IMG/VR virus record: IMGVR_UViG_3300034108_000145
Coordinates: 1-64,000 of that record
Length of the DNA: 64,000 bases
Direction: 5' to 3' (one strand)
Origin: a virus
The translations under genes and the position numbers were made by a program. The notes below the pieces were generated by a model. The model ran no database searches and had not been told where the DNA came from. It was given only the letters and a program-made list of their open reading frames with translations. Shown here one piece after another: positions 6,654 through 44,879 of this stretch (the first letter of the stretch is position 1; each line of letters starts with the position of its first letter).

Positions 6654-9600
6654 TTACTCAGTTTGATCTTGTTGTGCTTGTGCAATAGCTTGCATCATCA
6701 TAGCTGGATTGTATGCATTACCTTGTTGTAAAACACTATACATAGGTAATAAAGATTGAGCAGCTGCGTATGGGTTTGCTTGAGCAGAAGATCCGCCTCC
6801 TTGTGTCATGTCATGCCATTGTTTAAATGTCAGATCACTAGCACCTTTATCTTGCATATATTGTGCTACTAAAGCTGGCATATCTTTACTTCTAGCTGCA
6901 GATGCATATCCTGGAAGTCTAGATGTACCATATCCTTTTTTGAAATATGATCTACCAGTTTTAGGATCAATATTGTAAACAGGATTAACAGCGTTTAACA
7001 TACCTAAGTTCATTCTGTTATTCCATGCGTTATTACCAGCTTTAACTAAATTGTTAATATATGCTCTGTTAGCATTATCAAACTGTTGGTTAGCAACAAC
7101 ATAATCTTTCCAATAGTCTTGAGCGTTCATAGCGTTAAGAAGATTGTATTGATCTTTACGTTGTCTTTCTTGACTACCAAACATATTAGCTGTAGCTACG
7201 TTACGAGCATCTACTTGTCCAATATCTTGACCAACACCTTCAGCAGATTGACCAGCTAAGAATGATGCGTTAGAAGCAAATCCTTGAGGTGCTGTATAAT
7301 TAGCAAGTTGTTCTGATGGTGCAGCATACTGATTAGCAAAACGTTGTGCAGCTTTAGCTCTCCAATCTTCAAACACTACATTACCTGGTTCATAAGGTAC
7401 GTTCTTTCTCCAAGGAAGATACTTCTTAGGAGGAATTTGAGCAGCACCCCAGAATGAATTTATATCAGGAGTCATGTAACCAAATGTACCAGTCTCTTTT
7501 GTACATGTAGCAGCAGCTTCAGATTCAGAAGTAAATGTACCTAACTCATCATATACAAGATTAGGTTTACCTTCTTCAGTAAGACCAAGACATCTCCATC
7601 CTTTTTTCTCTTTTGGTTTTTCAGAACAAACAGCATCAGCTTCTGCTTTTGATAAATAAGCTCCAGCTGAAGTTCTAGCTTGTTCATCCATATAACTAGA
7701 TGCTACAACTTGACGACCATTAGGACCTTCTTGACATAAATAACCAATTATTGGAACACCAGCTTCTCTAGGTTTTGCTTTAAAAGCATCATAGTGTTCA
7801 GCTCCAATAAACATATCGTCTTTCATTTCTGGACGATAAGTTGTTAAACCAAATCTTTCTGTAAACTTAGGATAGAACTTCTTTTCAAAAAACGTTTTAT
7901 TAGTATAAAGCTTTTTAGGGTTTGCTAATTGTGCATCAGTTAATCCTGTAGTATCTATACCTAATTCTTTAAAAGCAGCTTTACGAATCTCTAAAGGACT
8001 CATCTTAGCAATTTCTTCTGGACTTAAAACATCTTCAACAATTCTACGCTCGTATAAGTCAGGAGTGTACCCACCAAAGAATCCAGCTACACCTTGTTTA
8101 GTTGAAGGTGTAGAGAAAGTAAATCCAGGAGTAGATCCTTGAATAACTCTATAACCTGGGTCAGTTCCTTCAGGGGCTCTTTTAAATCCAAATTTAGTAG
8201 CCAAACGAGAAAGCTCACCAGCATCAGCAGGTGAAATGTTATTAATATAACTTTGTCCAGGTTTGTTTCTACTATTATATTTCTTTATAAGTTCCATGTA
8301 TTTAGAATACTCAGGATCTGTTATAGGAGCTCTTTGACCTGTAGCAGTATTATATATAGTTTCAGGTTCACCTGGAGTCTTAGAATAATAATAAGTACCG
8401 TCAGGATTCATTACAAGATTAGGTAGAGGTTTTGCAGCAGCTTCTTTTCTACGTTTTGCTTCTTGCTCAGCATTAACCTGGCTAACTATTTGTTGTGTGT
8501 ATGGACTTAAGAATCCAAATGTATTAGAACCACCGCCTTGATATTTAGGTATTCTACCACCATACGCCATCTCTTCTTGACCCATGTCTTCTTGTTCCTC
8601 ACCGCCTTGCATCTCTTCAGGGTTACCTTGCATAACAGGAGCAGCTACATCAGGAATACCTTGAGGGAATCCTTTCATAGATTCTTGTACTACAGAAAGC
8701 ATAGCTAGTTTCTTTTGATAGTTTTTAATCATCAATTGAGCAGTAGCTTTAGACATGTCATCTGCATACGGATCTTCTAATACAGCTTTGTATTTATTAA
8801 TATCATAACGCTTAGCAATCTCAGCTGGAGTGTACCCACCAGACTTAGCATTAAGACCAAAAGATTTTAAAACCTCAGAATCTTTAATCTTCATCTTTTT
8901 TGTATCAGAGAAAATAAAACTTCCTTCTGGTACATTAAGAGGAGTACCACCTTCAGAGTGACGCTTACCGCCAATCTTCATATGCTCTAATCCTCCATCA
9001 CCATCTAAGTCACCATATACTGTTTCACCTTTTTCGGCTTCTATATTAGCTTCCTCACGTGGAACTGCTGACATAGTATTTGAAATACTGTCTGATCTTA
9101 AATCAGCCATAGTATCATATACATTACGTTGACCAAGATCAAGACCGTAGTTAGATTGACCACCGTAAGCCATATTTTGTTTAGGCCCACCAGTAATCCT
9201 TATTTTAATTCTTTGCATATCTGTATTATTTGACATAGTACCACCATCTTCTGCAAACATGGTAGGTCCGTATGTTGCATTAGTATATTCACCTTTACTA
9301 TCAAACCCTAGCTCATTAGGTCTAAATATTCCTTCTTGATCCCAATCTCCACGATACTTAGTAGGATCAAAGTAGAGATTTTCAACTGCGTTCATCTCAC
9401 GAAGATTAGCTAACGTTTCTTTATCTCTCTTTTGACTATCTAAATAATTAAGAATAGGATCAGCCACATTAGCAACTTGTTGAACAGTACTTCCTATTTT
9501 ACCAAGACCAGTTGCAAGTTTATTATTAACTAACTTGTTTACACCTTTCATTCCTAAGTTAATAGTACCACTTATAGCTCTTTGCCAAAGCGGTCCTTTA

Positions 9601-9953
9601 CTAGGGTTAGGATTTACAATAGGAGGGTTTCCTGTAGTAGGAGTACCCTGATTAAATGTTTGGTACTGTATTGTAGGATTCCCAACTCCACCATTATTAG
9701 TCTGTGTACCATTATTGTTAACAGTAGTAACGTTAGGTACAGGAAATGATGGGTTATTACCAGTAGTCAAATTTGGAACATTAGTCCAAGAGAAAAGACT
9801 ATTGTTATAAGCAGTTCCAGGAAACACTTTACTTGTATCATAACCTGTGGCAAACGGATTGCTTCCCATAGGTGTTGGTGCATTCTTAGGTGTAATCTGA
9901 CTATTTTGATATTGAGCTTTAGGTAGTCCCTTACCGGTGATACGTATTTTCAT
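6654..9953 (-). CDS. Virion cargo protein 1-like, 1099 aa, with xxGG motifs
   Basis: Contains EANIEAEKGE...GGKRHSEGG...IFSD, which I recognise from crAss-like cargo proteins and Bacteroidota phage internal proteins; AEDGG, MAYGG x2 and YQGGG motifs; Q/N/A-rich C-terminus. Confidence 0.65.
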   Translation of the reverse strand: MKIRITGKGLPKAQYQNSQITPKNAPTPMGSNPFATGYDTSKVFPGTAYNNSLFSWTNVPNLTTGNNPSFPVPNVTTVNNNGTQTNNGGVGNPTIQYQTFNQGTPTTGNPPIVNPNPSKGPLWQRAISGTINLGMKGVNKLVNNKLATGLGKIGSTVQQVANVADPILNYLDSQKRDKETLANLREMNAVENLYFDPTKYRGDWDQEGIFRPNELGFDSKGEYTNATYGPTMFAEDGGTMSNNTDMQRIKIRITGGPKQNMAYGGQSNYGLDLGQRNVYDTMADLRSDSISNTMSAVPREEANIEAEKGETVYGDLDGDGGLEHMKIGGKRHSEGGTPLNVPEGSFIFSDTKKMKIKDSEVLKSFGLNAKSGGYTPAEIAKRYDINKYKAVLEDPYADDMSKATAQLMIKNYQKKLAMLSVVQESMKGFPQGIPDVAAPVMQGNPEEMQGGEEQEDMGQEEMAYGGRIPKYQGGGSNTFGFLSPYTQQIVSQVNAEQEAKRRKEAAAKPLPNLVMNPDGTYYYSKTPGEPETIYNTATGQRAPITDPEYSKYMELIKKYNSRNKPGQSYINNISPADAGELSRLATKFGFKRAPEGTDPGYRVIQGSTPGFTFSTPSTKQGVAGFFGGYTPDLYERRIVEDVLSPEEIAKMSPLEIRKAAFKELGIDTTGLTDAQLANPKKLYTNKTFFEKKFYPKFTERFGLTTYRPEMKDDMFIGAEHYDAFKAKPREAGVPIIGYLCQEGPNGRQVVASSYMDEQARTSAGAYLSKAEADAVCSEKPKEKKGWRCLGLTEEGKPNLVYDELGTFTSESEAAATCTKETGTFGYMTPDINSFWGAAQIPPKKYLPWRKNVPYEPGNVVFEDWRAKAAQRFANQYAAPSEQLANYTAPQGFASNASFLAGQSAEGVGQDIGQVDARNVATANMFGSQERQRKDQYNLLNAMNAQDYWKDYVVANQQFDNANRAYINNLVKAGNNAWNNRMNLGMLNAVNPVYNIDPKTGRSYFKKGYGTSRLPGYASAARSKDMPALVAQYMQDKGASDLTFKQWHDMTQGGGSSAQANPYAAAQSLLPMYSVLQQGNAYNPAMMMQAIAQAQQDQTE

Positions 9954-9957
9954 ATGA

Positions 9958-12900
9958 TTACATTATTTCAAACTGATAACCTTGTTGACGAAGCATTTCT
10001 AATTCTTCTGGAGTAACATCTAAAACTTGACCACCTTGTTGCTTAGCAAAGTTTTTAGCAAAGTTAGCCTTTTTTCTCATAGCAGGACTATACTTTCCTT
10101 CTGGTGCATTAAGTATTGCAGATGCAGCTTCTTGTACTCCCATACCCATGCGAGTAGCTTGAGCTTTGAATGTTCCTCTCTTAGCTGGATCTATTTGGAT
10201 TCCTCCATAAGCCATGTTAGAAAGTATTTGATTTTGTACAAAATCTGGTAGAGCTCTAAATCCTGGATTGTTTGTTCCACCGTTTCTATACCAAGCATTT
10301 CCACTAAATGTAGAACCACCTCTTCTCATTTCTTGTTCTTCCATTTCCATCTCTTCACCTTGAGATTCAGGATTATACATCATATAGTCAGAAATAGCAT
10401 TAGCTGAATGATCCATAACTGCTAGCTTAGAAGCAATCCACGGATCTAAGTTTTGTTCTGGTGAAACAAACTGACGTAGCTTATTCATTTTATCAGCTAC
10501 AGAAGATATTTGTCCTAATGCCATACCGCCATTAGGTTCACCACCTTCTGCCATCATAGTCATTGGGTTATAGTACCCACCGTTTTTATATTTTTTACCT
10601 TTATACTTAATACCTTTTCTAGCTTTCCATGAATTTGTATTTGCGTCATACCCAGTACCCTGAGCAGTATCAATCATATTCTGATTAACTAAATTACTTA
10701 ATTCAGGATCAGTAGAAGACATAGGTACAATTGATCCGTCTGGCATCATAATGTTAACCTGTTCGTTAACTGGTTCTGGAACTCTCATCATACCAAGACC
10801 TGAACCTGTTACATCACCAACACCTTTCCAAAATCTTTGACCTTGTTGTAAAGGTTGTATAAAACTAGCAGTTTTGCCAACCCATGATGGAGCATTTTGT
10901 AAACCTCTAGCAGTGAGTACACCCATACCTCTTGTCAAAGGATTAATACTTTGATCAATAAATCTTTGAGGTGCGGCTCCACCAACCCAATCTAAAGTTT
11001 TACCTGTACCTGTCCAAACTTTTTTAGCAACATTAGCAACTTTGCTAGCTTTGGTAGCTTTGCCAGCTGTAGCAGCAGCTTTTACTGCTTTACCGGCTTT
11101 ACCAAGTTTACCAAATACTGGTATAGCACCTGCCATTTCTAAACCGGTCTCCCACCAAGCAGCATTAGGATCGTTATAACTTCTACGAACATCATCCCAT
11201 GAGCTAATACCTGTAGGATCAACCCACTCTAAGATGTTTTCTCCTAGTGAATCTGGCTCACCACCTTCTTGAAACTTAGGCATACGTTTCATAAACTTCA
11301 ATGTATTTCTAAGCCAAGGAGTTTCTGTTGCAGCAGCACTAGCTTCTCTTAAAGCTCCCATAAAAGCATTCTCACTTTTTGCAGCAGCTCCTGGTAATGT
11401 AGGAAACTTAGGTACAGGTTTACCCCAACGAATAGCTGCAGCTTTTTGTGCATTAAAACTACGCAAAGCTTTAGCTTCTCCTTTAGCTTTTTCAAGTGCA
11501 TTCATATAAGCTTCTTCTCCCTCTACTGCAGCTAATGCAGCACTTGTTCTATCAGATATATTCTGTACTAATTTACTCTGACGAGCAGCCGCACTCTTCT
11601 TTGCATTAAAACTACGTAGAGCTTTACTTTCTGCTGCAGCTTCATCAATTGCATTTGCAGCTTCAGCTCTATTTAGAATACTAGATTCTGCATTAGCTTC
11701 TTGTAACATCTTCCAAGCTGATAAATCATTAGCAGCTGTACCAGATTTTAAAGTGTGAACAACCCCAGGAATTTCAGCAGCATCTAAAGTCTTAAGAATA
11801 TTTCTTTGTCTTAATGGTAATCCTTTAAACCAATCAGCAACATCCTTAATACCTTTAGTAGCATTAGTTGCAGTTTGAGCTGTCAAGTTTTCAACAGCTT
11901 GTGTTATTTTAGCTTTAGCTGCATCACTTAACTTAAATGCACCAGAATTAATATATTTTAACATAGCTTGAGATTCAAGATAAGTTAATCCACCTGCAGC
12001 TGCAGTAGCACCAACAATACCAAGAACTTTAGCTACATAACCATTTTCAGTTTCATTAGATTGCTTCTTAGGAAGAATAGGAGTTTTTCTACTAGTTGTT
12101 GTATCTTTAGGGGTAGATGTACTATCTGCAGGAACTTGTACAGGGTTACCTTGTTGATCAATAACTGTTACAGTTTTAGAACTTTTACCCGCTGTAGATG
12201 GTGTATAGGATTGAAGAAGATCAGGAGATTGTTGCAACATACTTATCATCTGAAGATTCTGAGCAGCTGTTCCACGATAGTTCTTAATACCTAATTGACT
12301 AGCTAATGCTTTTCTACTAGTATAATCTGCAGCTTTATTTTGTGCAGATAAAAAGTCATATACACTTGATCCTTGATACGGATTGAGAGCAACCTGTGCA
12401 GCTTGAGCAGGTACTGCTGCAGGAGGAACCCCTACAACAGGTTGTGCTATAGGAATACTATCAGCCATCATAGCTGGAGAATTCATATAGTTATTATACT
12501 GACCCATTTGTTCCCATTCTTGCATAGCAGCAGCAAAGCTGTTATAATCAGGAAAATCTTCTTGACGTGGTACTTCCATACCACCTTGAGCATAATACAT
12601 ATATTGATCATTCATATATCCACCCCCTTGACCATACTCAGCAGGGTCTGTTTTAAAAGTAGGTTCTTGAATAGTTACAGCTCCTGTAGCACTATCCATA
12701 GTATACTTAGGAGTAAATCTGCTTAAGTCTTCAAGCTGCTTTTTATTAAGAAAAGACCTAAGATTATTATCAAAGAAAGATTTAAGTTTATTTTGGTTGT
12801 CCATAATAAAGTTTTGCCTTAAAGCACTTTCTAAACCATTAGCCATGTTAGATTTATTTTGCTGCATGTTAGCTTGGTACTGATTCATCATATTGACGTT

Positions 12901-13074
12901 CTGTGAAGCTTCAGCAGCTTTAGCAGCATATGGATCATAGGTATCACCTTTTTGCATACCAAACTGAGCTTGGTTTAGTTGACCACCGTTTTGTTTATTT
13001 CTTTTAGAAGATCTAAATCTTACTATTCTGTTTTTCCCTGTAGCAAAGTTAGGGATAAAGTCGTAGGTAAACAT
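9958..13074 (-). CDS. Modular (polyvalent) cargo protein, 1038 aa
   Basis: About 10 xxGG motifs separate modules: DUF3597-like cell-wall-binding segment, hydrophobic helix, pre-toxin-TG-like segment and several small basic/helical modules. Confidence 0.6.
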   Translation of the reverse strand: MFTYDFIPNFATGKNRIVRFRSSKRNKQNGGQLNQAQFGMQKGDTYDPYAAKAAEASQNVNMMNQYQANMQQNKSNMANGLESALRQNFIMDNQNKLKSFFDNNLRSFLNKKQLEDLSRFTPKYTMDSATGAVTIQEPTFKTDPAEYGQGGGYMNDQYMYYAQGGMEVPRQEDFPDYNSFAAAMQEWEQMGQYNNYMNSPAMMADSIPIAQPVVGVPPAAVPAQAAQVALNPYQGSSVYDFLSAQNKAADYTSRKALASQLGIKNYRGTAAQNLQMISMLQQSPDLLQSYTPSTAGKSSKTVTVIDQQGNPVQVPADSTSTPKDTTTSRKTPILPKKQSNETENGYVAKVLGIVGATAAAGGLTYLESQAMLKYINSGAFKLSDAAKAKITQAVENLTAQTATNATKGIKDVADWFKGLPLRQRNILKTLDAAEIPGVVHTLKSGTAANDLSAWKMLQEANAESSILNRAEAANAIDEAAAESKALRSFNAKKSAAARQSKLVQNISDRTSAALAAVEGEEAYMNALEKAKGEAKALRSFNAQKAAAIRWGKPVPKFPTLPGAAAKSENAFMGALREASAAATETPWLRNTLKFMKRMPKFQEGGEPDSLGENILEWVDPTGISSWDDVRRSYNDPNAAWWETGLEMAGAIPVFGKLGKAGKAVKAAATAGKATKASKVANVAKKVWTGTGKTLDWVGGAAPQRFIDQSINPLTRGMGVLTARGLQNAPSWVGKTASFIQPLQQGQRFWKGVGDVTGSGLGMMRVPEPVNEQVNIMMPDGSIVPMSSTDPELSNLVNQNMIDTAQGTGYDANTNSWKARKGIKYKGKKYKNGGYYNPMTMMAEGGEPNGGMALGQISSVADKMNKLRQFVSPEQNLDPWIASKLAVMDHSANAISDYMMYNPESQGEEMEMEEQEMRRGGSTFSGNAWYRNGGTNNPGFRALPDFVQNQILSNMAYGGIQIDPAKRGTFKAQATRMGMGVQEAASAILNAPEGKYSPAMRKKANFAKNFAKQQGGQVLDVTPEELEMLRQQGYQFEIM

Positions 13075-13076
13075 AC

Positions 13077-16000
13077 TTATTTATTTTTAGATTTTATTTT
13101 ACGTTCTTGTTCTAGCATCTGTTTAGTAGGCTTTTTGCCTGACCCTTTGTTAGCTCTAATGTTATCCCATAATCCACGTTTAGAATATGAGCCATCTGCT
13201 CTACGAATCATCTCCCCACCTTGAGCCATCTTAATCATATCCCATAAACTAAGTTCTCCACCATCTTCTTTCTTAGGTTTAAAATTTGGGTTGTTTGGAT
13301 TAAAAGGTAAAAAGTCATTAGTATTCCATATACGTCCATACCAAGTATCATCATAGTTACTGTTAGGAACTCCTGGAGCTGGATTGTTTATGTTTCTATA
13401 ATACCAATCTCTTCCTTTGTTCATTAACACTCTTCTTTGATTTTCAGAAAGCTTTCCTATTGTAGAATTATACTCTTGATCAAAAGAATAAGCAGGGTTT
13501 TTTCTACCTGACCAGTTTCCTTGTGCATCTAACTTTGAAGGATCATATTGTCTATAGTATTCCTGTAAAGCATAAGCTCTAGGATCTTTTGTTATTTTTT
13601 TACTAGCTTTATCCCAACCAGCGTTGAATATAAAATCCATAGCTTCACCAGCTTCCATAGCACTAGCGTTAGGAAATAATTTCTTTACCTGTGGGTAAAT
13701 ATCATTCATTAACATGTTCATATAGCTAGGATCACTATAGTATGGTAGAGGAGTACCACCAGGGCCACCTCTTAACTGTTCATATTTTAATATCTTACCA
13801 GCTTGATGTCTTACGCTGTCTGCACTACTCATACCACCTCTTTGCATTTTTATAGTACCACCATCTTCCCAAGTCTTTTTAGCAAATGCTCTAAAGTATG
13901 GATTACCATCTAAATTCTTTTTATGACGAGCATAGAATGCTGCTTTACGTTCTGGATCTTTAGGATGTTGACCTAGTTTAGAATCACCAAAATATTTAAC
14001 AGTTCCATCAGGTCCTGTCACTTTATGTGTTTTACCTTTACGATCATTACTTCTAGTTACAATGTATCCACCGTTTTTCATTTTAGCAATACCACCACAC
14101 TTATGACAAGTTAATGGATCAGATCCACCATCTACAGCTTCCCAAGACCAACCACAATTAGAACAACTAACAGTCTTACTAAGAAGTCCTTCCCCAAATT
14201 CCCCACCTTCTTTATAGCCTAGAGTCTTCATATATGCTTTTAACGCAGCATCTTGTTTTAAAAGACCCATATCTTGATTTACCATAGAAGAATACCTAGG
14301 ATCACCAGGGTTGTAATTCTGAATACCTTTCTTCTTAATTCTTTGAGCAGCAAGAGAAAAACTATCTAAGTTACCAAGATCAGGTGTAGATTCTAGTTTT
14401 TTATAATACCCATCTATAATATTAGGATTACTTTTTAAATAATTTTCTATAGCTTGTCCATCTTCTACTTCATAATTCCAACCACTGTTATCTTTAAGTA
14501 CTTTAATACCTGGTACTTTTTTATCAGCTAAGTATCTATTTACTTCATAGGGTTGATAATCTTCTGCTACATTCCAACCTGAAATTAAGTCTTGCTTATT
14601 ACCAGCTTCTCTGTGGTTAACATACTCCTTGTCAGAACCAAAAGTAGATTCTCTACCTACAAGAGATAACATAACCCATGGATCTACATTATTAGCTTTA
14701 GCTGCGTTAACTATATCATTAATCATTGCTGGTGCTACCTTAGCTCCTCTAAAACGACCAGAAGATAAGTTTATAGAATTAGATGAATTGTCGTATTTTT
14801 TTGTATCATTAGCTCTTAGCTTATCATAAAACTTTTCATTTTTATCATAGAAAGCACTATTCATTTGATTATATGACGTATAAAAAAGATCTTTAGCTGA
14901 TTTACGCATAGCATCCGTTATTCCTGAACTCTTTGGTTTAGAAAAAAAGTTAGCAACTTTAGAAGCTAGTGACATTATCATTGGAGAAGGGCCAAGTAAT
15001 GTTCCTCCACCAAACTGCATCATAGGATACTCGTCTACATAAGATGCACCGCCAAAGTTATACTCTTGTCCTGGATACATCATCTGCTTTTGACCATTAG
15101 ATCCTACACCATATACAGGATAAGGAACACCTTGCATAGTTATATTAGAACTAGGTATACGAGTTACTTGACCAGGGTGAGCCCACTGACCGCGAGGATC
15201 TACAATAGGACCACCGTCTTGTTTATATACATTAAACAACCAGTTTCTCATACCATTCCATCCACCCATCTTAGGAGCCATCTCAGACTGCATGCGTTGT
15301 AAATCATAAAATCTAGGATCTACACCAAACTGTTGTTGAGCAAGTTTAGACCCCATAGGAGTACTCATTCTCTGTTTTAACTTACTAGCAATAATATACT
15401 TTTGCTCAGGACTATATCCAGATGTATCATCTGCTACAAACACATTAGGGTTCTGTTGAAAGAATTGTTTATATCCTGCAACAGCTGCTTTCTTATCAGC
15501 TTTATCTAAACGATTCTGCATCCAATCATAATCAAAAGTTATCTGACCTGCGTCTTGTGCAGCATATTGTTTAGCAAGTTCTTTATCCATAGCAGCTACT
15601 TGCTTAGCCCATGAGTTCATATCTTTAGTAGCAGCTTTATTAGCAGCATTTGCTTGTCTACCTCTAGCTACATCAGCCGCACATTTACCTGTTACAGGAT
15701 CTTTTTCTTGATCAGGACAATCATAAAATCCACCTACATCATATCTTTTAACACTGCCTCCACATTCATAACATGGTTGACCACCCATCATATATTGAGG
15801 AGCATCATATTCACCACCAAACTCTCTTCTAGTAGCTTGTCTTGAATATTGTCCTTGGTGACCTCTACTTTTATTTATCCAAGTTTCAGGGGATATCTTT
15901 TGTACTGACATGGGTTCTAATACTTTTTGACCAGGTTTACCAATATGTATATAATGAGCATAAGGGTTAACTTCTGGAATGGCGTTTGCTAAATCAGGGT

Positions 16001-18575
16001 ATCTTTCAAGCCATGGAATAACTGACGCTTCTTTCCAAGCTTTTGAGTTTATCTTATTAATATCTCCTAGCTTCTTATCATAATAAGCGTCCATAAAAAC
16101 ATCTTTTATAAAAGAAGGACTTGTTAACCTTTTTATAATTCTTTGATACCTTGGGGTATTATTTAAATCAAATCTGCCTTCAAATCTATTTAGTCTATCC
16201 TTAGTAGTAAATGCATCATCTTCATAACGTGCACGAGCTATTTCTTGTTCTTCATCAGCAATTTGTCTTAACTGGTTTCTTCTATCATTAATCTGCTGCA
16301 TTTCAGGAACAATACTTTCCCAAGTATGTCTTTCATCAGATAAAATTTCTGGAAACTCTTTTACTAATCTTTCATAACCTAACTTTTCTCTGTAGTTATT
16401 TATTACGTCTTGATCAAGTTTTTCATATTCAGTTTTCCAACTTATAGGTTTAGAAGAAAATGTTCTTAATTTATAATTATCTCCAGTTTGTATATCAGGA
16501 ACATTATTATTAATCCACGCTCTTCTATTACTAGAACTAAAATCTGTAGGTTTTTTTGCTTTAACTATATATCCTTTTCCATAGGTATATCCTTCAGCAG
16601 TACCTAAAGAGTTAGACGTATATAAAGCATCTAATCCTTTTTTAGCAAGTTGATCCATGTCAACACCAAATCTACCAGCTCCTGTCTCACCTGGGATATG
16701 TGTAGCCATATACTTTGCTACTTCCTCAGAATCATTAGGATCTATATTAGCACTTCTTAATTCTGCAATAAGATTATCAAATTTAGATAACGGATCTTCT
16801 TGTGGGTTTTTATTAAACTGTTTAAATGAATTACTTTTATTTATCAATCTTTGTTTAAGAGCTTCTAAGTCTACGTTAACACCTCTATAAAATGAGTTAT
16901 CTCTATTTACTAACCCACGAATAGTTCTATCTGTTAAAAGATCTGATTGAGATATTCTTTCTAAGTTCTCAGGTATCTGATATCCTAATGGTCCATATAC
17001 TTTCTTAGCATACATTAAGTCATCTAAATTAGTTTTTCTAGATGATGAGTTAAGTAAGTTGTTAACTTTTTTATATCCTTGTAACCAATCTTGTTTATAA
17101 AGATTTACATTATTAATTCCAATTTCTGAACCAGGATAAGTCAAAGCTTGAGCTCCTACTTGTTTTCCTGCTGGTCCATAACCAAATGATGAGTTATCAG
17201 CGTAGTTAGGAACTTCAACCATGTTTGGACCTTCAAAACCTCTACTAAACTGCTTTCCATATTTTGGATAAGTTCTACCATCATAAGGAACTCCTTGTGA
17301 ATAAAACGTTTGAGAATGTGTACGTCCAAGATCACTTCCTTGAACGCTTGGTCTCACTTTACCTGAGGTAATTAAATCTTGTACACCAGCATCATCTCCT
17401 ATCATTCTATAGGCAGATGTTTCTTCTGGTGTAAAAGCAAAAGGATTAATCTTATAAGTATTTCTTAAAGGAGTACGTTCAGTTAAAAACTTACCTGCAG
17501 TTTCTAAACCTTCTCCTAATCTAGTAGCTTTAGCTATATTTTTACCACCGCTAAGTAGTTCTGATCCTGTTATATAGTTTAACGGATTCATTAAACTTGT
17601 AAACACCTTGTCTTCATCTGAAGCACCAAGATACCTACTATTAAAATTACGAGATTGACTACCAGCTGGATTCATTAAGTTGTCTCCTGCTTTTAAAGCT
17701 GGTCTAAAACCATAACGATACGCAAGATCATCAACTGTTTCAAATGGTTGAGTTATACCAATTTCTTTAGCCTCATCAGGTAACATACCAGGTATAGGCA
17801 TATTACCTCTGTCTATACCTTCTTGTATAGTAGGCATAAAACCTCTAGTATTTGAAGGTGACATAGCTTGATTAAGAGCAGCAATATGATTAAGACCTTT
17901 CCAACCCCATTGACCTAATTTATATAAGTTGTTTGGATCAAAAGGTTCTGTAACATTAGCTTGTCTAGCAAGAGATACAGCGTTTTTACCAGCAAGATTA
18001 TTAAATCTATTGATGTAGTTAACTCTACTCTCATTTTCTTTTTGAGGTATAGCATCAACTAAATTCTGGTAAGTTCTTGTATTTAATAAGTTACCATAGT
18101 TTTGATCATAAATCTTTCTATCAGCTTCTTTATTATTGAAGCCCATACGTTCTGCCCATTTTGGAACAGTAGATTGTTGACCTTTTACATAATCCTCATA
18201 TGAACCTAATTGTTGTTGAGCTTTCTTTCTAGCAGATGCTACATTTGGATTTAGTTTAGAACTAACAGTAACTTCTGGTAGATCAACTACCCCACTTACA
18301 AATTCTGCATTGTTATATGCAGAGTTAGGTAAGTTACCCGGAAGAGGGTTCCATTGTCCACTAGCTTTATCATAAGATACCCACTGACCTATCCCTTTGT
18401 TATATGCTTTTTCATATTCATCAGAATAAGTATTCATTCTTTTACCATCAACCAAAACAGTTTCCCCACGTTTTTTAGACGTAGTTTGCTTACCCTTCTG
18501 TGCTTTAGGCAAACCAGGAAGGATCTTGTGATCTATGTCACCAGCATTCATCATATGAATTAGTAACTTATTCAT
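13077..18575 (-). CDS. Modular (polyvalent) cargo protein, 1832 aa, with ART-like, SLT-like and GH108-like domains
   Basis: YRMIG and FYRGV...LYTSNSLGTAEGY ART-like motifs; VDPWVMLSLVGRESTFG...YNPG SLT motifs; CxxC...CxxC ribbon; GH108-like MDFIFNAG...RDWYY...WYGRI; about 12 xxGG linkers. Confidence 0.65.
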   Translation of the reverse strand: MNKLLIHMMNAGDIDHKILPGLPKAQKGKQTTSKKRGETVLVDGKRMNTYSDEYEKAYNKGIGQWVSYDKASGQWNPLPGNLPNSAYNNAEFVSGVVDLPEVTVSSKLNPNVASARKKAQQQLGSYEDYVKGQQSTVPKWAERMGFNNKEADRKIYDQNYGNLLNTRTYQNLVDAIPQKENESRVNYINRFNNLAGKNAVSLARQANVTEPFDPNNLYKLGQWGWKGLNHIAALNQAMSPSNTRGFMPTIQEGIDRGNMPIPGMLPDEAKEIGITQPFETVDDLAYRYGFRPALKAGDNLMNPAGSQSRNFNSRYLGASDEDKVFTSLMNPLNYITGSELLSGGKNIAKATRLGEGLETAGKFLTERTPLRNTYKINPFAFTPEETSAYRMIGDDAGVQDLITSGKVRPSVQGSDLGRTHSQTFYSQGVPYDGRTYPKYGKQFSRGFEGPNMVEVPNYADNSSFGYGPAGKQVGAQALTYPGSEIGINNVNLYKQDWLQGYKKVNNLLNSSSRKTNLDDLMYAKKVYGPLGYQIPENLERISQSDLLTDRTIRGLVNRDNSFYRGVNVDLEALKQRLINKSNSFKQFNKNPQEDPLSKFDNLIAELRSANIDPNDSEEVAKYMATHIPGETGAGRFGVDMDQLAKKGLDALYTSNSLGTAEGYTYGKGYIVKAKKPTDFSSSNRRAWINNNVPDIQTGDNYKLRTFSSKPISWKTEYEKLDQDVINNYREKLGYERLVKEFPEILSDERHTWESIVPEMQQINDRRNQLRQIADEEQEIARARYEDDAFTTKDRLNRFEGRFDLNNTPRYQRIIKRLTSPSFIKDVFMDAYYDKKLGDINKINSKAWKEASVIPWLERYPDLANAIPEVNPYAHYIHIGKPGQKVLEPMSVQKISPETWINKSRGHQGQYSRQATRREFGGEYDAPQYMMGGQPCYECGGSVKRYDVGGFYDCPDQEKDPVTGKCAADVARGRQANAANKAATKDMNSWAKQVAAMDKELAKQYAAQDAGQITFDYDWMQNRLDKADKKAAVAGYKQFFQQNPNVFVADDTSGYSPEQKYIIASKLKQRMSTPMGSKLAQQQFGVDPRFYDLQRMQSEMAPKMGGWNGMRNWLFNVYKQDGGPIVDPRGQWAHPGQVTRIPSSNITMQGVPYPVYGVGSNGQKQMMYPGQEYNFGGASYVDEYPMMQFGGGTLLGPSPMIMSLASKVANFFSKPKSSGITDAMRKSAKDLFYTSYNQMNSAFYDKNEKFYDKLRANDTKKYDNSSNSINLSSGRFRGAKVAPAMINDIVNAAKANNVDPWVMLSLVGRESTFGSDKEYVNHREAGNKQDLISGWNVAEDYQPYEVNRYLADKKVPGIKVLKDNSGWNYEVEDGQAIENYLKSNPNIIDGYYKKLESTPDLGNLDSFSLAAQRIKKKGIQNYNPGDPRYSSMVNQDMGLLKQDAALKAYMKTLGYKEGGEFGEGLLSKTVSCSNCGWSWEAVDGGSDPLTCHKCGGIAKMKNGGYIVTRSNDRKGKTHKVTGPDGTVKYFGDSKLGQHPKDPERKAAFYARHKKNLDGNPYFRAFAKKTWEDGGTIKMQRGGMSSADSVRHQAGKILKYEQLRGGPGGTPLPYYSDPSYMNMLMNDIYPQVKKLFPNASAMEAGEAMDFIFNAGWDKASKKITKDPRAYALQEYYRQYDPSKLDAQGNWSGRKNPAYSFDQEYNSTIGKLSENQRRVLMNKGRDWYYRNINNPAPGVPNSNYDDTWYGRIWNTNDFLPFNPNNPNFKPKKEDGGELSLWDMIKMAQGGEMIRRADGSYSKRGLWDNIRANKGSGKKPTKQMLEQERKIKSKNK

Positions 18576-21500
18576 TACCTAGGTGATTGTAAAAGTTTTA
18601 AGTTAGATATTTTAAATAGTAGTTTAACATCATTACTCTTTAATTTACGTAAAAATACTTTATTAGATTGATGTCTAAACTTTTTATGCTGTAACGCTGG
18701 CTTCTGATAATCAACATATTGAGCATTAATGTCAAACTGATAACCGTTAGGTTTTGTAACAAACATTGGAACGTTGTTAGCTGTAAACTCACCACGGTTC
18801 TTAGTTATATCCCAGAACTGATTAAATCTATATTTGTTCTCTTCTTTAGAGAAGTTAATCTTTATTGATTGAGGTCCCACCTGAGGGTAGGTAAGCATAT
18901 CTAAAGGGTTAGTTTTACTCTTTACAACAAGCTCTAATAAACCAGACACTTGTTCAGAATTGTAAACAATAGCCTGATCAAAGTTCTCATCTAGAACATG
19001 ATACTTATCTGAACAGTTGTTGTGAGACTTATATGCTTCTAACACATACTCTATGTTTCTCATTGAGTTAACAGTCTGACCTGTAGAAGATACAAACTCT
19101 ATTTCAAATGGATAATCTATACCATAGAAGTTAACATACTTGTCACAACGAATATTGTGTTTCCATATGCTATCTTTATTAACACTCATGAAGTGAGCCT
19201 TACCAGGAATCAAGAAAGTTGGAATCCAATCATGGAATGACAACCAAACCTGAGACTTAGGATCATATGAAATAGTCCATGATGCCGGCTGGAAAGCTTC
19301 TGATTCTAATTCGTAGTACACTTTAGCTCCGTTTATTAAACGGTAAAATCTTTCACCATCTAAAGCAAGATCTGTAAACAAAGGTTTATAGTCTTTCTTA
19401 GTGATATATAAAATCTCATTGGTGTTATCATAGATCATCTGCACACCTACACCTTTTACAGGATTATCTCCTAAAGGATAAGCAGGGAATGCTTTGAGAA
19501 GTTCACTAGGTAAGTATCTAGAGAACCACCACTTCATACCATCTTTTGAAATCTCTTTAATACCACCACCATATACAAATACTTTTCCTTGATCTTGAGA
19601 TACCCAGAACACACCATAAGTTGTATTCATAGAAGCATACTTGCTTTGGTTTGAACCATACTCAAATGACTTTTCTGAATTAACTACAGCTTGAAGTTGT
19701 TGCGGTCCACTAAATAATGCACCATCACCAATAGTAATTTTAGCTCCTGTAGCATCAAGCTTTAGTTCCTCTACACCCATAAACTGTAAAGGACTCTGAC
19801 GCTTCATCATAAACAAAGCACCAGTTTTATTAATAGACTTGATTGATGTTACAGGAGATGAAAACTCTTTATAGTTGTTAGCTAGATACAATCTCCAGTT
19901 ATCTTTTTTAGACTCAGTAAACTGTGGTAAAGAGTATACAACACGATTAGGATTATATAAATAACATTTTTCAGCTACTGTAGGATCATAATCTCTAGGT
20001 AAAATGTTACCCCATGAGATGTGACTATTAAATAACTTAGATATACTTAATGAGTAGTCATACTTATAGATCTCACCACTCTTAATCATATCACTTCTAA
20101 ACATCATATCTATATCAGCATAACCATATGGATCATAGAACCTACGTTCAATCTGATCATCATGATCACGGTAACCAACGTTAATCTCACTCTCTACAAA
20201 GAAGTCACGTACACCTGAGTTAAACAAATAGAAGTGTCTGTTCTTAACATAAAATGCTCCACCTTGTGCTCCTGAACCATTAAGATGACGGTGATCTCTA
20301 GATATATCTGTTAAAAGTTCAGCATCTATTCTTTTAGAGTTTAACCAATATCTAGGGTAAGTCATTGCAAAATGATTACGATAGTCAAACTCTATTTCAT
20401 CTGGTTCACCCATCAACCATGTGTTAAAATAGAACATGGTGTTTCTTTCAGTAAACCTGTTAATATAAGTATCACCGCCAAAGTATACTTGACTAGAATA
20501 CTTTTTAGTTTTATCTGCTTGTGTAAATTCTACACAGCTAGATATTGGCATTTGTTTTATAGAATCTAACTGACCGTATTGTGACACCATAGGAATCTTA
20601 ATAGCTCCATAGTACGCAACAGTATTAGCAACAAAAGTATCGTTTATGTTAATATTTAAGTCATGGTACAACTGTCTAGTATTATCAGTTATACCAGATT
20701 GAGTTCCAGTCTTTAAAAGATCCGTAGACGTTTGTAAAATTACAAACTGATTTCTATAGAAGTTATTAACTCTATAGTTTGTACTAAATCCATGAACTCC
20801 TGTTCTTATATACGAAGAATCAACAATTTCTTTTCTAATATTACCTCTAACATTTGTAGTGTAGTTATTATAAAAAGCATGTGATAAACATTGAAGAGCA
20901 TACTGTTTCTTTGGCACTAAATATAAGAACATACTAATAAGCTTCTCTTTTTTAAGATCAGCTAACTTCTTTTCTAGTCCAATTACAGCTGCAGCTGTAG
21001 CTCCCCAAAGAAGCAATCTTGCAGCAAATAAAATACCACCTACAACACCATCAGCTGGTTCTGGAGGTTTAGGAATCTTATAGTTTAAAGATATTGGAAA
21101 GTTTTCTGTAGCAGAAATTGTTATACCACCATCACCAGAAAATACTTTTTGTAAATTATTAATAGCATCTATTGTTGCCATTATATCAGTAACGGCACTT
21201 AGAAAGTTATTAGCTAACTTAAATCTTGGATGTTTATATGGCTCAGTAAATTTAGATTGAGCTGTACCATGTATTTCCTGATACACTTTAAGCTCTTGAA
21301 CATTCATAAAAGGATTACTAAAAGTAGTCTCTGGTGAATGAAAAGAGAAAGTGTTATTTTTATATGCCGTTAAAGGAGCTGTTTTATTATCTGTTGAGTA
21401 TCCTTTGTAAGCAACATCTTTACTTGATGTTAAAAACAAGTCCGCACGTAAATCATTATAAGGATAGTTTTGATATAATCCTTTTACAGTGGTAGTGCCA

Positions 21501-23149: not shown

Positions 23150-23501
23150 GTTTTATTTCCAGCTTCTTCTTTTCTAAAAATTTATACGTCACAGCGGTTA
23201 GGTGTCCTGCCAACCAAGCTTGAGCTTCTTCATCTACTATTCCTCTATCTTCTGTCACTCTAACTACTGCATGAAAGATTTCATGAGCTATAGTGTTGTG
23301 GGTTAGATATTTGTTACCTAATAGTAAATAGTAAACATCCATATCCGGCATAATTAAAGCACCTTCTGCTTCACCGCCAAAGTCTTCCTTTATCTTACAT
23401 CTTTTATATATCCTCTCTGCTTCAACAGAAACACTATCAACTATACTTATAATGATCTTGCAACTATAAGTAGGTAATTTTATGGTTGTGTTTAGCTTCA
23501 T
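23142..23501 (-). CDS. Small zincin-like metallopeptidase (HExxH), 119 aa
   Basis: TIAHEIFHAV followed by DEEAQAWL (third-ligand Glu); its TGA stop lies inside the muzzle gene start (8-bp overlap). Confidence 0.7.
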   Translation of the reverse strand: MKLNTTIKLPTYSCKIIISIVDSVSVEAERIYKRCKIKEDFGGEAEGALIMPDMDVYYLLLGNKYLTHNTIAHEIFHAVVRVTEDRGIVDEEAQAWLAGHLTAVTYKFLEKKKLEIKHG

Positions 23502-44870: not shown

Positions 44871-44879
44871 AACCTACTA

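What the first reader, a model, noticed from the sequence alone, without database searches (positions are those of the whole stretch)
6654..18575. Three cargo proteins are strings of modules joined by a repeated [M/Y/F/W/K]-x-x-G-G motif: candidate phage polyprotein or loading-tag effector system
Seen: about 26 copies. 1832-aa protein: REFGG, YMMGG, YECGG, YDVGG, KQDGG, MQFGG, YKEGG, MKNGG, WEDGG, MQRGG, KEDGG, MAQGG. 1038-aa protein: KQNGG, YGQGG, YAQGG, FQEGG, YKNGG, MAEGG, MRRGG, YRNGG, MAYGG, KQQGG. 1099-aa protein: AEDGG, MAYGG x2, YQGGG, plus LPKAQ variants at two N-termini. The motifs fall at boundaries between unrelated modules, often as doublets roughly 7-14 aa apart. They do not recur this way in the portal, MCP or the 815-aa cargo. 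Established: adenovirus protease cuts (M/L/I)xGG|X, and African swine fever virus polyproteins are cut at GG|X. crAss-like phages eject cargo proteins encoded right after the muzzle gene. Inference: these genes are cassettes in which small effectors are concatenated and then either cleaved at xxGG or docked in the head through the motif, so new effectors can be added by acquiring a tag.
Basis: partly seen in the sequence, partly recalled or inferred. Interest (0 to 1): 0.9.

Follow-up and report, generated by a model that had tools for sequence, protein, structure and literature searches.

The report
Gly-Gly joints in crAss-like cargo proteins
Three neighbouring proteins that this uncultured crAss-like phage probably carries in its particle and injects are strings of swappable modules joined by a short conserved peptide ending in Gly-Gly; the pattern is real and apparently undescribed, but nothing shows that the joints are cut.

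Summary
All 26 listed motifs are present. [MYFWK]xxGG occurs 12, 10 and 6 times in the 1832-, 1038- and 1099-aa proteins, against 3.1, 1.4 and 2.0 in shuffles. No other ORF of the 129.8-kb phage record has more than 3.

The motif marks module borders. In relatives the same modules sit in other orders and other proteins. 68% (1832-aa) and 52% (1038-aa) of similarity break-points lie within 6 residues of a motif, against 14% and 12% expected. The 1099-aa protein is a weak case (10% against 5%). It is a conserved homologue of crAss001 cargo protein C1 (gp45).

Neither cleavage nor motif-mediated loading is shown. The genome gave no hit to five protease families. In crAss001 C1, two such Gly-Gly pairs lie inside the stretch (425-552) that the paper reports as structured in the virion. 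65 of 1969 joints have Pro directly after GG. Only 2 of 383 family proteins end at GG.

Best reading (0.55): uncut, selected joints that precede each module in ejected, partly extended cargo proteins, and at which recombinants survive. Cleavage code 0.2; loading tag 0.18.

The same joint was reported earlier in this scan on at least eight other genomes. I found no description of it in the paper library.

The parts
13077..18575 (-). 1832-aa cargo-position protein (P0001), first gene after the muzzle-position gene
   Evidence: ORF, translation. 12 strict motifs against 3.1 expected. 681 long homologues for aa 900-1832.
15876..18575 (-). P0001 aa 1-900: N-terminal part without joints. It holds one GG and no motif. 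A conserved 28-aa N-terminal leader includes LPKAQ (aa 22-26, nt 18498-18512).
   Evidence: (24 HSPs start at residue 1; ends cluster at 28-30). No Pfam family.
13080..15830 (-). P0001 aa 916-1832: joint-rich half. Joints: REFGG 15813-15827, YMMGG 15780-15794, YECGG 15756-15770, YDVGG 15729-15743, KQDGG 15210-15224, YNFGG 15048-15062, MQFGG 15006-15020, YKEGG 14202-14216, MKNGG 14067-14081, WEDGG 13857-13871, MQRGG 13833-13847, KEDGG 13257-13271, MAQGG 13215-13229.
   Evidence: Coordinates. 68.0% of 494 internal BLAST end-points lie within 6 aa of a joint, against 14.3% if uniform.
14082..14996 (-). P0001 aa 1194-1498: block present here but absent from relative L003, where the two flanking modules abut at one GG. 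It contains a lysozyme/SLT-like lead and a Cys-x2-Cys ... Cys-x2-Cys stretch.
   Evidence: P0001 1121-1193 and 1499-1588 match L003 protein residues 921-993 and 986-1076. Atlas lead 0.88. Pfam found nothing.
9958..13074 (-). 1038-aa cargo-position protein (P0002). Joints: KQNGG 12982-12996, YGQGG 12622-12636, YAQGG 12580-12594, FQEGG 11260-11274, YKNGG 10576-10590, MAEGG 10540-10554, MRRGG 10315-10329, YRNGG 10276-10290, MAYGG 10201-10215, KQQGG 10030-10044.
   Evidence: 1984 representative proteins at E <= 1e-3. 51.6% of 546 internal end-points lie within 6 aa of a joint, against 11.7%.
9961..10593 (-). P0002 aa 828-1038: dense run of mini-modules. It includes 'IQIDPAKRGTF...ANFAKNFA', also found in C1 proteins of gut crassviruses, and a C-terminal ~24-aa piece that is C-terminal in most listed relatives.
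   Evidence: (Dulem virus 41 and crAss001 C1 carry the same module after a GG).
6654..9953 (-). 1099-aa protein (P0003), a conserved C1 (gp45)-type cargo protein. Joints: AEDGG 9240-9254, MAYGG 9159-9173, MKIGG 8967-8981, MAYGG 8556-8570, KYQGG/YQGGG 8529-8546, MTQGG 6795-6809. LPKAQ at 9912-9926.
   Evidence: AF2 model: joints at 237, 264, 465, 473 and 1052 all lie in segments with pLDDT < 50, between better-predicted parts at 291-442 and 484-1005.
8670..8948 (-). P0003 aa 336-428: homologous to the portal-bound domain of crAss001 C1 (gp45 about 466-544)
   Evidence: Local hhalign of the A1 slice against a 7-sequence C1 alignment: probability 93.2%, E 2.8e-7, 80 columns.
9159..9215 (-). P0003 aa 247-265 'RIKIRITGGPKQNMAYGG': an internal copy of the N-terminal leader 'MKIRITGKGLPKAQ' (aa 1-14, nt 9912-9953). 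The L003 orthologue starts here.
   Evidence: consensus; P0003 246-632 matches L003 685-aa protein residues 1-380; Y263, G265, Q266 invariant.
18575..23149 (-). 1524-aa virion protein in the muzzle position (putative muzzle); not motif-enriched
   Evidence: phrog_37948 'virion structural protein', 9.2e-64. It lies directly after the ring-protein genes. 2 motifs against 1.39. BLASTP to crAss001 gp44 found nothing, so the name rests on position.
23142..23501 (-). 119-aa conserved HExxH protein (P0004), the only protease-like candidate next to the cargo genes; no link to the joints is shown
   Evidence: Fold searches inconclusive.
23505..25072 (-). crAss tail ring protein 1 (23505-24398) and ring protein 2 (24398-25072): context that places the locus in a crAss-like virion module
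   Evidence: PF24228 CrAss_Ring_1, 2.2e-14 (53.9 bits, cut-off 27). PF25702 CrAss_Ring_2, 2.4e-19 (70.3 bits).

Best explanation
The three genes encode virion-borne 'cargo' (ejection) proteins of an uncultured crAss-like phage. The 1099-aa protein is the counterpart of crAss001 cargo protein C1. The 1832-aa and 1038-aa proteins are variable strings of small domains and 6-20-residue conserved peptides. Each unit is preceded by a short, protein-level-selected joint. Its consensus is roughly Pro-Lys-[Met/Tyr/Phe]-[Ala/Gln/Glu/Lys]-x-Gly-Gly-[Glu/Tyr/Gln]-[Pro/Thr/Ile]. I read the joint as an uncut hinge and N-terminal cap of the following unit. It would let a long chain lie partly extended through capsid, portal and tail, as C1 does in crAss001, and pass the narrow tail unit by unit. 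Because only in-frame exchanges at such joints leave every unit intact, recombinants at joints survive. Units are therefore gained, lost, duplicated and moved between neighbouring genes exactly there. Shown: enrichment, border position, shuffling at joints, conservation of GG within variable linkers, homology to C1. Inferred: virion location, hinge/cap role, absence of cleavage.
For: 1. Enrichment: 12/10/6 against 3.1/1.4/2.0. In relatives: 1158 against 303 in 119 proteins and 1517 against 258 in 142 representatives.
2. Border position: 68.0% of 494 and 51.6% of 546 internal BLAST end-points lie within 6 aa of a motif, against 14.3% and 11.7% uniform.
3. Concrete shuffling: modules of P0001 lie in two different proteins of L003. 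A 305-aa block is inserted between two modules that abut at a single GG in L003.
4. Selection acts on the protein, not the DNA. Three MAYGG joints use different synonymous codons. Joint Gly codons are 67% GGT against 60% elsewhere.
5. G237, G238, Y263, G265 and Q266 are invariant in 50 sequences, while neighbouring columns are 30-50% conserved and the AF2 pLDDT is below 50.
6. C1 link: hhalign 93.2%, E 2.8e-7. C1 proteins of seven gut crassviruses show the same modules after GG joints.
7. Uncut in the solved relative: gp45 GG at 427-428 and 434-435 lie inside the segment 425-552 that the authors report as structured in the capsid. The authors describe one chain bridging capsid and tail (passages of PMC10172136; review PMC10136315, 'stretched out').
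8. Joints precede units. Only 2 of 383 family proteins have GG in their last 4 residues, against about 15 expected. 36 have a motif in their first 10 residues.
9. Pro directly follows GG in 65 of 1969 distinct joints.
10. No hit to five protease families in the record.
Against: An invariant GG plus a preferred Met/Tyr three residues before it is more than a flexible linker needs. That points to recognition by something (protease, portal, scaffold, chaperone).

The uncut evidence concerns two joints of one distant relative. I took the residue range from the paper's text, not from coordinates.

Pro after GG is half as frequent as background (3.3% against 6.0%), as a cleavage site would also predict.

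A conserved HExxH protein lies next to the cargo genes. The 3384-aa RNAP-associated protein also has an HExxH. The phi14:2 preprint notes a zincin-like domain in such cargo proteins and speaks of likely polyprotein cleavage.

No virion proteomics exists for this phage. The homologue sets were chosen by similarity to these very proteins and are not phylogenetically independent.
Confidence: 0.55

Rival explanations
1. Cleavage code. The proteins are polyproteins cut after Gly-Gly, in the particle or after injection, by a phage or host protease. This releases small effectors and short peptides.
For: The motif ends in GG, with preferred residues on both sides. GG is invariant inside otherwise variable linkers. 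Doublets 6-14 aa apart are common. A conserved 119-aa HExxH protein sits between ring protein 1 and the muzzle-position gene: 264 homologues, with H73, E74, H77, E84, E91 and E92 invariant in a 30-sequence alignment, and synteny in 44 of 64 loci. There is an HExxH in the 3384-aa cargo protein. The phi14:2 preprint proposes cleavage of fused RNAP polyproteins and notes a zincin-like domain (passages). Pro after GG is under-represented (3.3% against 6.0%).
Against: Two homologous joints lie inside a segment reported as structured in crAss001 virions. Those authors list gp45 at its full 90.8 kDa and never mention proteolysis ('proteoly' 0 occurrences). crAss001 virion gels have bands at 85 and 100 kDa, but I could not see which protein is in which band. 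No C48, C5, C39, S78 or M78 family hit in the record. The HExxH protein has no tblastn match in 50,697 phage records, although crAss001 and its relatives carry the joints. It also occurs in 20 of 64 loci of another phage type without joint-rich genes nearby. 65 joints have Pro after GG. The hydrophobic residue is at P5, not at P4 as in adenain sites (recalled).
Confidence: 0.2
2. Loading or docking tag. The joint peptide itself is a short linear motif, present in many copies, that binds a capsid, scaffold, portal or tail surface. It would drive packaging of whatever module carries it.
For: The conserved GG-centred peptide lies in segments predicted disordered, as short linear motifs do. The motif is found at N-termini (36 of 383 within the first 10 residues). 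In crAss001 the structured portal-bound piece begins at residue 425, two residues before a GG joint, and the tail-bound piece (214-245) begins four residues after the GG at 209-210. The motif is restricted to cargo-position genes.
Against: The N-terminal count (36) is not above what an even spread would give (about 42 by my own rough estimate from motif density; no call computed it). The conserved 6-20-residue peptides between joints (for example STFSGNAWY, in 65 of 383 proteins) are better candidates for docking than the joint. The vRNAP-type cargo proteins are packaged in crAss001. Their counterparts here carry 1-2 motifs in 1270-3384 aa, so the motif is not needed for loading. No partner is known.
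Confidence: 0.18
3. No function. The motif is a by-product of composition, low complexity, or shared descent of a few repeated segments.
For: The proteins are Gly-, Met-, Tyr- and Gln-rich in places. Many joints in the relatives are inherited copies, not independent events.
Against: 0 of 500 shuffles reach the observed counts for two proteins. G-richer neighbours (13% Gly, 1645 aa) have 0 motifs. The joints flank unrelated modules, and the residues around GG differ. GG is invariant where its neighbours vary.
Confidence: 0.03

Closest known systems
Cargo protein 1 (C1, gp45) of Bacteroides phage crAss001 (PDB 7QOG chain M and four more entries; Bayfield et al. 2023, PMC10172136)
   Same: It is encoded after the muzzle gene, carried in the virion, and described as one chain reaching from capsid to tail. 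P0003 aa 336-428 is homologous to its portal-bound domain. gp45 and six other gut-crassvirus C1 proteins carry AYGG/AFGG-type joints before the same modules, including the 'I-x-I-x-x-x-x-K/R-G-x-F ... ANFA' module of P0002. gp45 is named 'Cargo protein 1 gp45' in the PDB.
   Different: Pfam PF25725 crAss_CARG1 gives no hit in this record at E <= 1. BLASTP and whole-length hhalign find nothing. Here the C1-type gene is the third gene after the muzzle-position gene, and two much more variable joint-rich genes precede it. The papers I read do not mention the joint ('glycine' 0 occurrences in the review).
Ejection ('ejectosome') proteins of podoviruses: T7 gp14/gp15/gp16, P22 gp7/gp16/gp20
   Same: They are internal virion proteins that leave ahead of the DNA. 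The crAss001 authors draw this parallel. Relatives of P0001 carry cell-wall hydrolase domains (PF01510, PF00959, PF18013, PF01832, PF03734 in the precomputed Pfam column), as T7 gp16 does (recalled).
   Different: I know of no conserved joint peptide and no module shuffling between neighbouring genes in those systems (recalled, not searched). VIA rows to T7 tail/ejection entries (Z 6.2-6.8 over a long helix) are at noise level.
GG|X polyprotein processing by clan CE cysteine proteases (adenovirus adenain; African swine fever virus pS273R; SUMO/Ulp)
   Same: The consensus ends in Gly-Gly and lies between functional units. Gln/Ala/Glu at P4 recalls SUMO's Q-T-G-G (recalled).
   Different: No Peptidase_C5 or C48 family hit. 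The hydrophobic residue is at P5, not P4. Pro follows GG in 65 joints. No cleavage is shown, and two homologous joints lie within a structured segment in a solved virion.
Double-glycine leader peptides cut by Peptidase_C39 domains of bacteriocin exporters
   Same: Short N-terminal leaders ending in GG occur here: 31 aa in P0002, and 5-12 aa in several relatives.
   Different: Most joints are internal and repeated. No C39 family hit in the phage. The leader consensus, with hydrophobic residues at -4, -7 and -12 (recalled), is not seen.
Polymorphic toxin / MuF-type phage-head proteins with exchangeable C-terminal cassettes
   Same: A conserved carrier plus exchangeable modules, diversified by recombination.
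   Different: Here many small units are exchanged, at many joints per protein and between neighbouring genes. No toxin or immunity pair was recognised.

Membership tests
Crassvirales-like phage virion module | crAss-type tail ring proteins next to a giant muzzle-position gene | tested here: met
   PF24228 CrAss_Ring_1 (53.9 bits, cut-off 27) and PF25702 CrAss_Ring_2 (70.3 bits) at 23505-25072. The 1524-aa gene follows. Its muzzle identity rests on position only.
Crassvirales-like phage virion module | crAss-type portal, MCP and giant virion RNAP subunits | tested here: met
   Portal phrog_6547, 2.1e-89. MCP phrog_11589, 5.7e-30. BLASTP to crAss001: gp32 2e-06, gp49 4e-11, gp50 1e-23.
crAss cargo protein 1 (C1, gp45; Pfam PF25725 crAss_CARG1) | match to the Pfam model | tested here: not met
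   No match at E <= 1 in six frames of the whole record. No Pfam family for P0003.
crAss cargo protein 1 (C1, gp45; Pfam PF25725 crAss_CARG1) | homology to the portal-bound domain of gp45 (residues 425-552) | tested here: met
   hhalign of the A1 slice (P0003 255-450) against an alignment of 7 C1 sequences: probability 93.2%, E 2.8e-7, 80 columns, P0003 336-428 to gp45 about 466-544. Against gp45 alone only E 0.015.
crAss cargo protein 1 (C1, gp45; Pfam PF25725 crAss_CARG1) | presence in the virion, bound to portal and tail | not testable with these tools
   No particle data exist for this uncultured phage. Foldseek and VIA searches with the 1099-aa model did not list 7QOG. The model is too long and of low confidence (mean pLDDT 58).
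Viral GG|X polyproteins processed by clan CE proteases | a clan CE cysteine protease encoded by the virus | tested here: not met
   PF02902 and PF00770: 0 matches at E <= 1 in the record. Distant relatives could be missed.
Viral GG|X polyproteins processed by clan CE proteases | site consensus (M/L/I)-x-G-G|x with the hydrophobic residue at P4 (recalled) | tested here: not met
   Met/Tyr/Phe/Trp lie at P5. P4 is Ala 26%, Gln 23%, Glu 14%, Lys 14% in 1969 distinct joints.
Viral GG|X polyproteins processed by clan CE proteases | products cut after GG | not testable with these tools
   Indirect only: two homologous joints lie inside the gp45 segment reported as structured.
Double-glycine leader / Peptidase_C39 systems | C39 peptidase partner | tested here: not met
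   PF03412: 0 matches in the phage record. Host genomes were not examined.
Zincin-type metallopeptidase (for the 119-aa protein P0004) | HExxH plus a downstream Glu ligand on the next helix (gluzincin layout, recalled) | tested here: met
   H73, E74, H77, E84, E91 and E92 are invariant in 30 sequences. AF2 (pLDDT 95) puts HExxH in helix 68-85 and E91/E92 at the start of helix 91-111.
Zincin-type metallopeptidase (for the 119-aa protein P0004) | fold or family match to a known peptidase | tested here: inconclusive
   No Pfam family at E <= 1. PF06114 has no hit. Atlas lead Peptidase_M78 at 0.89 only. Foldseek has no match at E <= 0.001. VIA best Z 5.3.

The most novel reading that the evidence does not exclude
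The Gly-Gly joint is a recognition code shared by thousands of crAss-like cargo proteins. Either it is a cleavage site for a virion-borne or host protease, or it is a multivalent loading tag. Either way, any peptide or domain placed behind a joint would be packed and injected, which amounts to a natural plug-in system for phage-delivered payloads in the most abundant phage order of the gut and of many waters.
Probability: 0.22. Interest if true: 0.8.

Novelty: new variant of a known kind. Interest (0 to 1): 0.55.

Why it matters
Crassviruses are among the most abundant phages known. How they load about 5 MDa of protein into the head and tail, and eject it, is an open question (PMC10172136).

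A conserved joint peptide marks unit borders in C1-type and neighbouring cargo proteins. It gives a simple sequence rule for three tasks:
- splitting these unannotated giant proteins into units;
- predicting which short peptides may dock inside portal and tail;
- designing direct tests, namely peptides spanning joints in existing crAss001 mass-spectrometry data and GG-to-AA mutants.

It also shows in detail how phage virion proteins diversify by in-frame module exchange between neighbouring genes. If the joints turn out to be cut or to act as loading tags, they would define a new processing or packaging code in phages.

Tried and rejected
**DNA-level signal.** I asked whether the joints are conserved DNA (recombination linkers, Shine-Dalgarno-like GGAGG). 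They are not. The hexamers are mostly GGTGGT (13 of 28). Identical peptides use different codons. Gly codon use differs little from the rest of the genes.

**Protease hunt.** Five Pfam protease families gave no hit in the record. An HExxH in the 3384-aa protein (aa 2640) has no Pfam protease family; only weak AAA hits lie nearby.

**P0004.** No match in PDB sequences. No hit in 50,697 phage records. Foldseek and VIA gave no clear fold.

**Complex prediction.** P0004 (alignment A2) against P0002 residues 905-1038 (alignment A3) returned 'no answer', score 0.00, and the controls were not run. I count this neither for nor against binding.

**P0003 against gp45.**
- BLASTP, the PDB profile search and whole-length hhalign found nothing significant.
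- Foldseek and VIA with the whole 1099-aa model gave only noise-level rows dominated by a long helix.
- Only the sliced profile against a C1 family alignment worked.

**P0001 and P0002 against gp45.** BLASTP was not significant.

**P0001 against the phage collection.** tblastn found no match.

**Module annotation.** Pfam on nine sub-segments found nothing below E 0.04. The SLT/lysozyme reading of P0001 aa ~1300-1456 rests on a 0.88 atlas lead and a recalled 'ES' motif.

**N-terminal motifs as evidence for a tag.** Rejected, because 36 of 383 is about what an even spread gives (my own rough estimate).

**Papers.**
- PMC10172136: passages.
- PMC6235969: passages. Its gel figure and band assignments are not held.
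- bioRxiv 10.1101/2020.03.07.982082: passages.
- PMC10136315: passages.
- Other papers were seen only as search listings.
The mass-spectrometry tables and Extended Data Fig. 3 of PMC10172136, and the supplement of PMC6235969, could show peptides spanning joints, or band sizes, and so bear directly on cleavage.

**'Not in print'** rests on these results; the crAss001 structure paper has 0 occurrences of 'cleavage'; the 4 papers holding Crassvirales and polyprotein are, by title and abstract, not about cargo; none of the 10 listed papers holds both 'crAss-like' and 'Gly-Gly'; the review has 0 occurrences each of 'glycine' and 'protease'.

**Recalled, from no call:** the adenain, ASFV, SUMO/Ulp and double-glycine consensus sites, the rule that such proteases do not cut before Pro, the gluzincin layout, and the T7 gp16 hydrolase domain.


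Full report
**Setting.** The window is bases 1-64000 of a 129,765-bp IMG/VR virus record, rated complete by CheckV. All large genes lie on the minus strand. In transcription order they are:
- portal (59933-62686, phrog_6547, 2.1e-89) and MCP (56899-58518);
- several virion genes;
- crAss tail ring proteins 2 and 1 (Pfam PF25702 and PF24228, both above cut-off);
- a 119-aa HExxH protein;
- a 1524-aa 'virion structural protein' in the muzzle position;
- the three genes of the finding;
- an 815-aa and a >1379-aa protein.

Outside the window, proteins of 3384 and 1270 aa match crAss001 gp50 and gp49. This is a crAss-like phage, and the three genes occupy the position of the cargo genes of crAss001 (PMC10172136 passages).

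**The observation.**
- [MYFWK]xxGG occurs 12, 10 and 6 times. Composition-preserving shuffles give 3.11, 1.41 and 2.04. 0 of 500 shuffles reach the observed count for the first two proteins, and a fraction of 0.016 does for the third.
- Among the other 29 window ORFs of at least 150 aa, only a 411-aa ORF stands out (2 against 0.16). The portal, the MCP, the 815-aa protein, the muzzle-position protein and three Gly-rich giants are not enriched.
- No other of the 122 ORFs in the whole record has more than 3.

**The motif marks exchangeable units.** A close relative (L003) carries the same units in another arrangement.
- P0001 928-1127 and 1784-1830 lie in its 536-aa protein, together with P0002 832-933 and 944-1038.
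- P0001 1121-1193 and 1499-1588 lie side by side in its 1201-aa protein, meeting at one GG. In the window a 305-aa block separates them.
- The orthologue of P0003 starts at P0003 residue 246.

More widely:
- P0001 aa 900-1832 has 681 long homologues with 8-98% coverage.
- P0002 has 1984 representative homologues of 136-2293 aa.
- P0003 has 2001 homologues, mostly co-linear.
- The motif is 3.8-fold enriched in 119 homologues (1158 against 303; 109 of 119 exceed twice their expectation). It is 5.9-fold enriched in 142 representatives (1517 against 258).

For break-points I dropped end-points forced by protein ends. 68.0% of 494 BLAST end-points in P0001 (range 900-1827) and 51.6% of 546 in P0002 lie within 6 residues of a motif. 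Uniform placement gives 14.3% and 11.7%. For P0003 the figures are only 10% of 220 against 5.2%.

In 64 IMG/VR loci found through the HExxH protein, 44 have the ring1-HExxH-giant-gene order. By my reading of the table, the ORF after the giant gene has at least twice the expected [MYFW]xxGG count in 39 of the 42 loci that reach it. The giant gene itself has 0-3 against about 1.

These sets were chosen by similarity to the query proteins, and the sequences are related. The numbers therefore describe the family and do not count independent events.

**Anatomy of the joint.** I compared 1969 distinct [MYFW]xxGG contexts from 383 proteins.

| Position | Preferred residues |
|---|---|
| P7 | Pro 21% |
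| P5 | Met 48%, Tyr 31%, Phe 14%, Trp 7% (restricted to these four residues by the search pattern) |
| P4 | Ala 26%, Gln 23%, Glu 14%, Lys 14% |
| first residue after GG | Glu 19%, Tyr 14%, Gln 12% |
| second residue after GG | Pro 16%, Thr 11%, Ile 11% |

- Pro directly after GG occurs 65 times (3.3% against a 6.0% background).
- LPKAQ at two N-termini fits the upstream half of this consensus (Pro-Lys-x-Gln).
- Selection is on the peptide. The codons differ between identical joints, and no DNA consensus appears.
- In the 50-sequence alignment of P0003, G237, G238, Y263, G265 and Q266 are invariant and G465/G466 nearly so, while the flanking columns are 30-50% conserved.
- In the AF2 model (mean pLDDT 58), all P0003 joints fall in segments below pLDDT 50, between better-predicted parts.
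- Joints precede units. Only 2 of 383 proteins have GG in the last four residues, against about 15 expected from GG density. Motifs at the very N-terminus are tolerated (36 of 383).
- Many 'units' are very short conserved peptides. For example STFSGNAWY-x-x-GG occurs in 65 of 383 proteins, and the Cys-x2-Cys knuckles in 40-60.
- P0003 carries its N-terminal leader twice (aa 1-14 and 247-265), around a 230-aa insert.

**Link to the known C1 protein.** crAss001 gp45 has AYGG/AFGG/FAEGG-type joints at 209, 263, 332, 427, 434 and 562. I aligned the C1 stretches of seven gut crassviruses: crAss001, cr128_1, cr126_1, DAC17, 'frurule', Dulem virus 41 and IAS virus.
- The alignment shows the same layout.
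- A GG joint comes before the 'I-H-I-K-K-x-N-R-G-K-F ... A-x-F-A' unit. In Dulem virus 41 this unit is nearly the P0002 unit, and in DAC17 it is duplicated.
- A joint comes before the portal-bound domain, with a variable insert after it, and another joint follows the domain.
- A profile of P0003 255-450 matches this family with probability 93.2%, E 2.8e-7, over 80 columns. The Pfam model PF25725, BLASTP and whole-length comparisons fail.

So P0003 is a distant C1-type protein, and P0002 shares at least one C1 unit.

**Are the joints cut?** Nothing shows it, and several points lean against it.
1. The crAss001 paper reports gp45 residues 214-245 structured in the tail barrel and 425-552 in the capsid. 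It treats them as parts of one chain bridged by 179 residues. The GG pairs at 427-428 and 434-435 lie inside the second piece, so they would be uncut there. I took the range from the text and could not inspect coordinates. The PDB holds the chain as 7QOG_M.
2. Those authors list gp45 at 90.8 kDa from mass spectrometry and do not mention proteolysis. The 2018 paper reports virion bands at 85 and 100 kDa among 12 sizes, but the band assignments are in a figure I cannot see.
3. No hit to five protease families in the record.
4. Pro follows GG in 65 joints.
5. The hydrophobic residue is one position further from the GG than in adenain sites (recalled consensus).

Points for cleavage:
- GG is invariant, and there are side preferences.
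- Pro after GG is halved.
- There are two HExxH candidates.

P0004 is striking in itself. It has 264 homologues at 60-94% identity among those listed. Six candidate metal or catalytic residues are invariant, and the model is confident (pLDDT 95). However:
- it has no family or fold match;
- it is absent from 50,697 phage records, although the gut crassviruses among them carry joints;
- it also occurs in 20 of 64 loci of another phage type without joint-rich genes within 10 kb.

Its presence therefore does not track the joints.

**Most likely mechanism.** I read the joint as an uncut, specifically selected hinge and N-terminal cap. It separates small units in proteins that are stored partly extended along the capsid-portal-tail axis, as seen for C1, and that must pass a channel under 50 Å wide (PMC10172136; review PMC10136315). 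The short conserved peptides between joints are candidates for the docking segments seen in the tail and muzzle of crAss001. In-frame recombinants survive only at joints, which explains the break-point pattern and the traffic of units between adjacent genes. The degree of GG conservation suggests that something recognises the joint. That keeps the cleavage reading (0.2) and the loading-tag reading (0.18) alive.

**Novelty.** The cargo proteins are known. The joint peptide and the unit shuffling are, as far as my searches go, undescribed. Earlier agents of this scan reported the same joint on at least eight other genomes, with the same open question. My tests agree with them. For this window they add the break-point statistics, the codon check, the residue preferences after GG, the depletion of proteins ending in GG, the profile link of P0003 to C1, and the HExxH neighbour with its non-matching distribution.

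Noticed in passing
window 23142-23501 (-): A 119-aa HExxH protein lies between ring protein 1 and the muzzle-position gene. It has 264 homologues, and H73/E74/H77/E84/E91/E92 are invariant in a 30-sequence alignment. The AF2 pLDDT is 95, but there is no family or clear fold match. It is also found in 20 of 64 loci of a different phage type. It may be a minimal zincin of unknown role.
   Followed up: partly
window 4148-6595 (-): The 815-aa cargo-position protein has a weak EndoU-like match (PF19215 CoV_NSP15_C, E 7.9e-4, 19.8 bits, below the 23.9 cut-off, aa 586-709). It could be an injected RNase.
   Followed up: no
window 25720-27036 (-): An SbcD-like DNA repair exonuclease (phrog_704, 5e-50) is encoded inside the virion gene block.
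   Followed up: no
window 34280-49922 (-): Three consecutive giant Gly-rich ORFs (1890, 1645, 1680 aa; 10-13% Gly) carry no joint motifs beyond chance. They are probably tail or fibre proteins and were not examined.
   Followed up: no
window 13077-15005 (-), P0001 aa ~1300-1456: The stretch 'LVGRESTFG' and its surroundings look like a lysozyme/SLT-type cell-wall hydrolase. There is only a 0.88 atlas lead, and Pfam finds nothing. Relatives carry amidase, lysozyme, glucosaminidase and YkuD domains at this kind of position.
   Followed up: partly
L072 (Bacteroides phage DAC17 C1 homologue): The 'GIHIKKxNRGKF...ANFA' unit is present twice in tandem, each copy after a GG. This is a unit duplication at a joint in a cultured crassvirus.
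   Followed up: partly
G000 118351-128505 (-), outside the window: The 3384-aa gp50-like virion RNAP protein has an HExxH at aa 2640 with weak AAA-type hits about 200 residues downstream. No protease family was recognised.
   Followed up: partly
window 30739-31974 (-): A 411-aa ORF has 2 motifs against 0.16 expected (fraction 0.008). It is the only other ORF above chance and has no family match.
   Followed up: no
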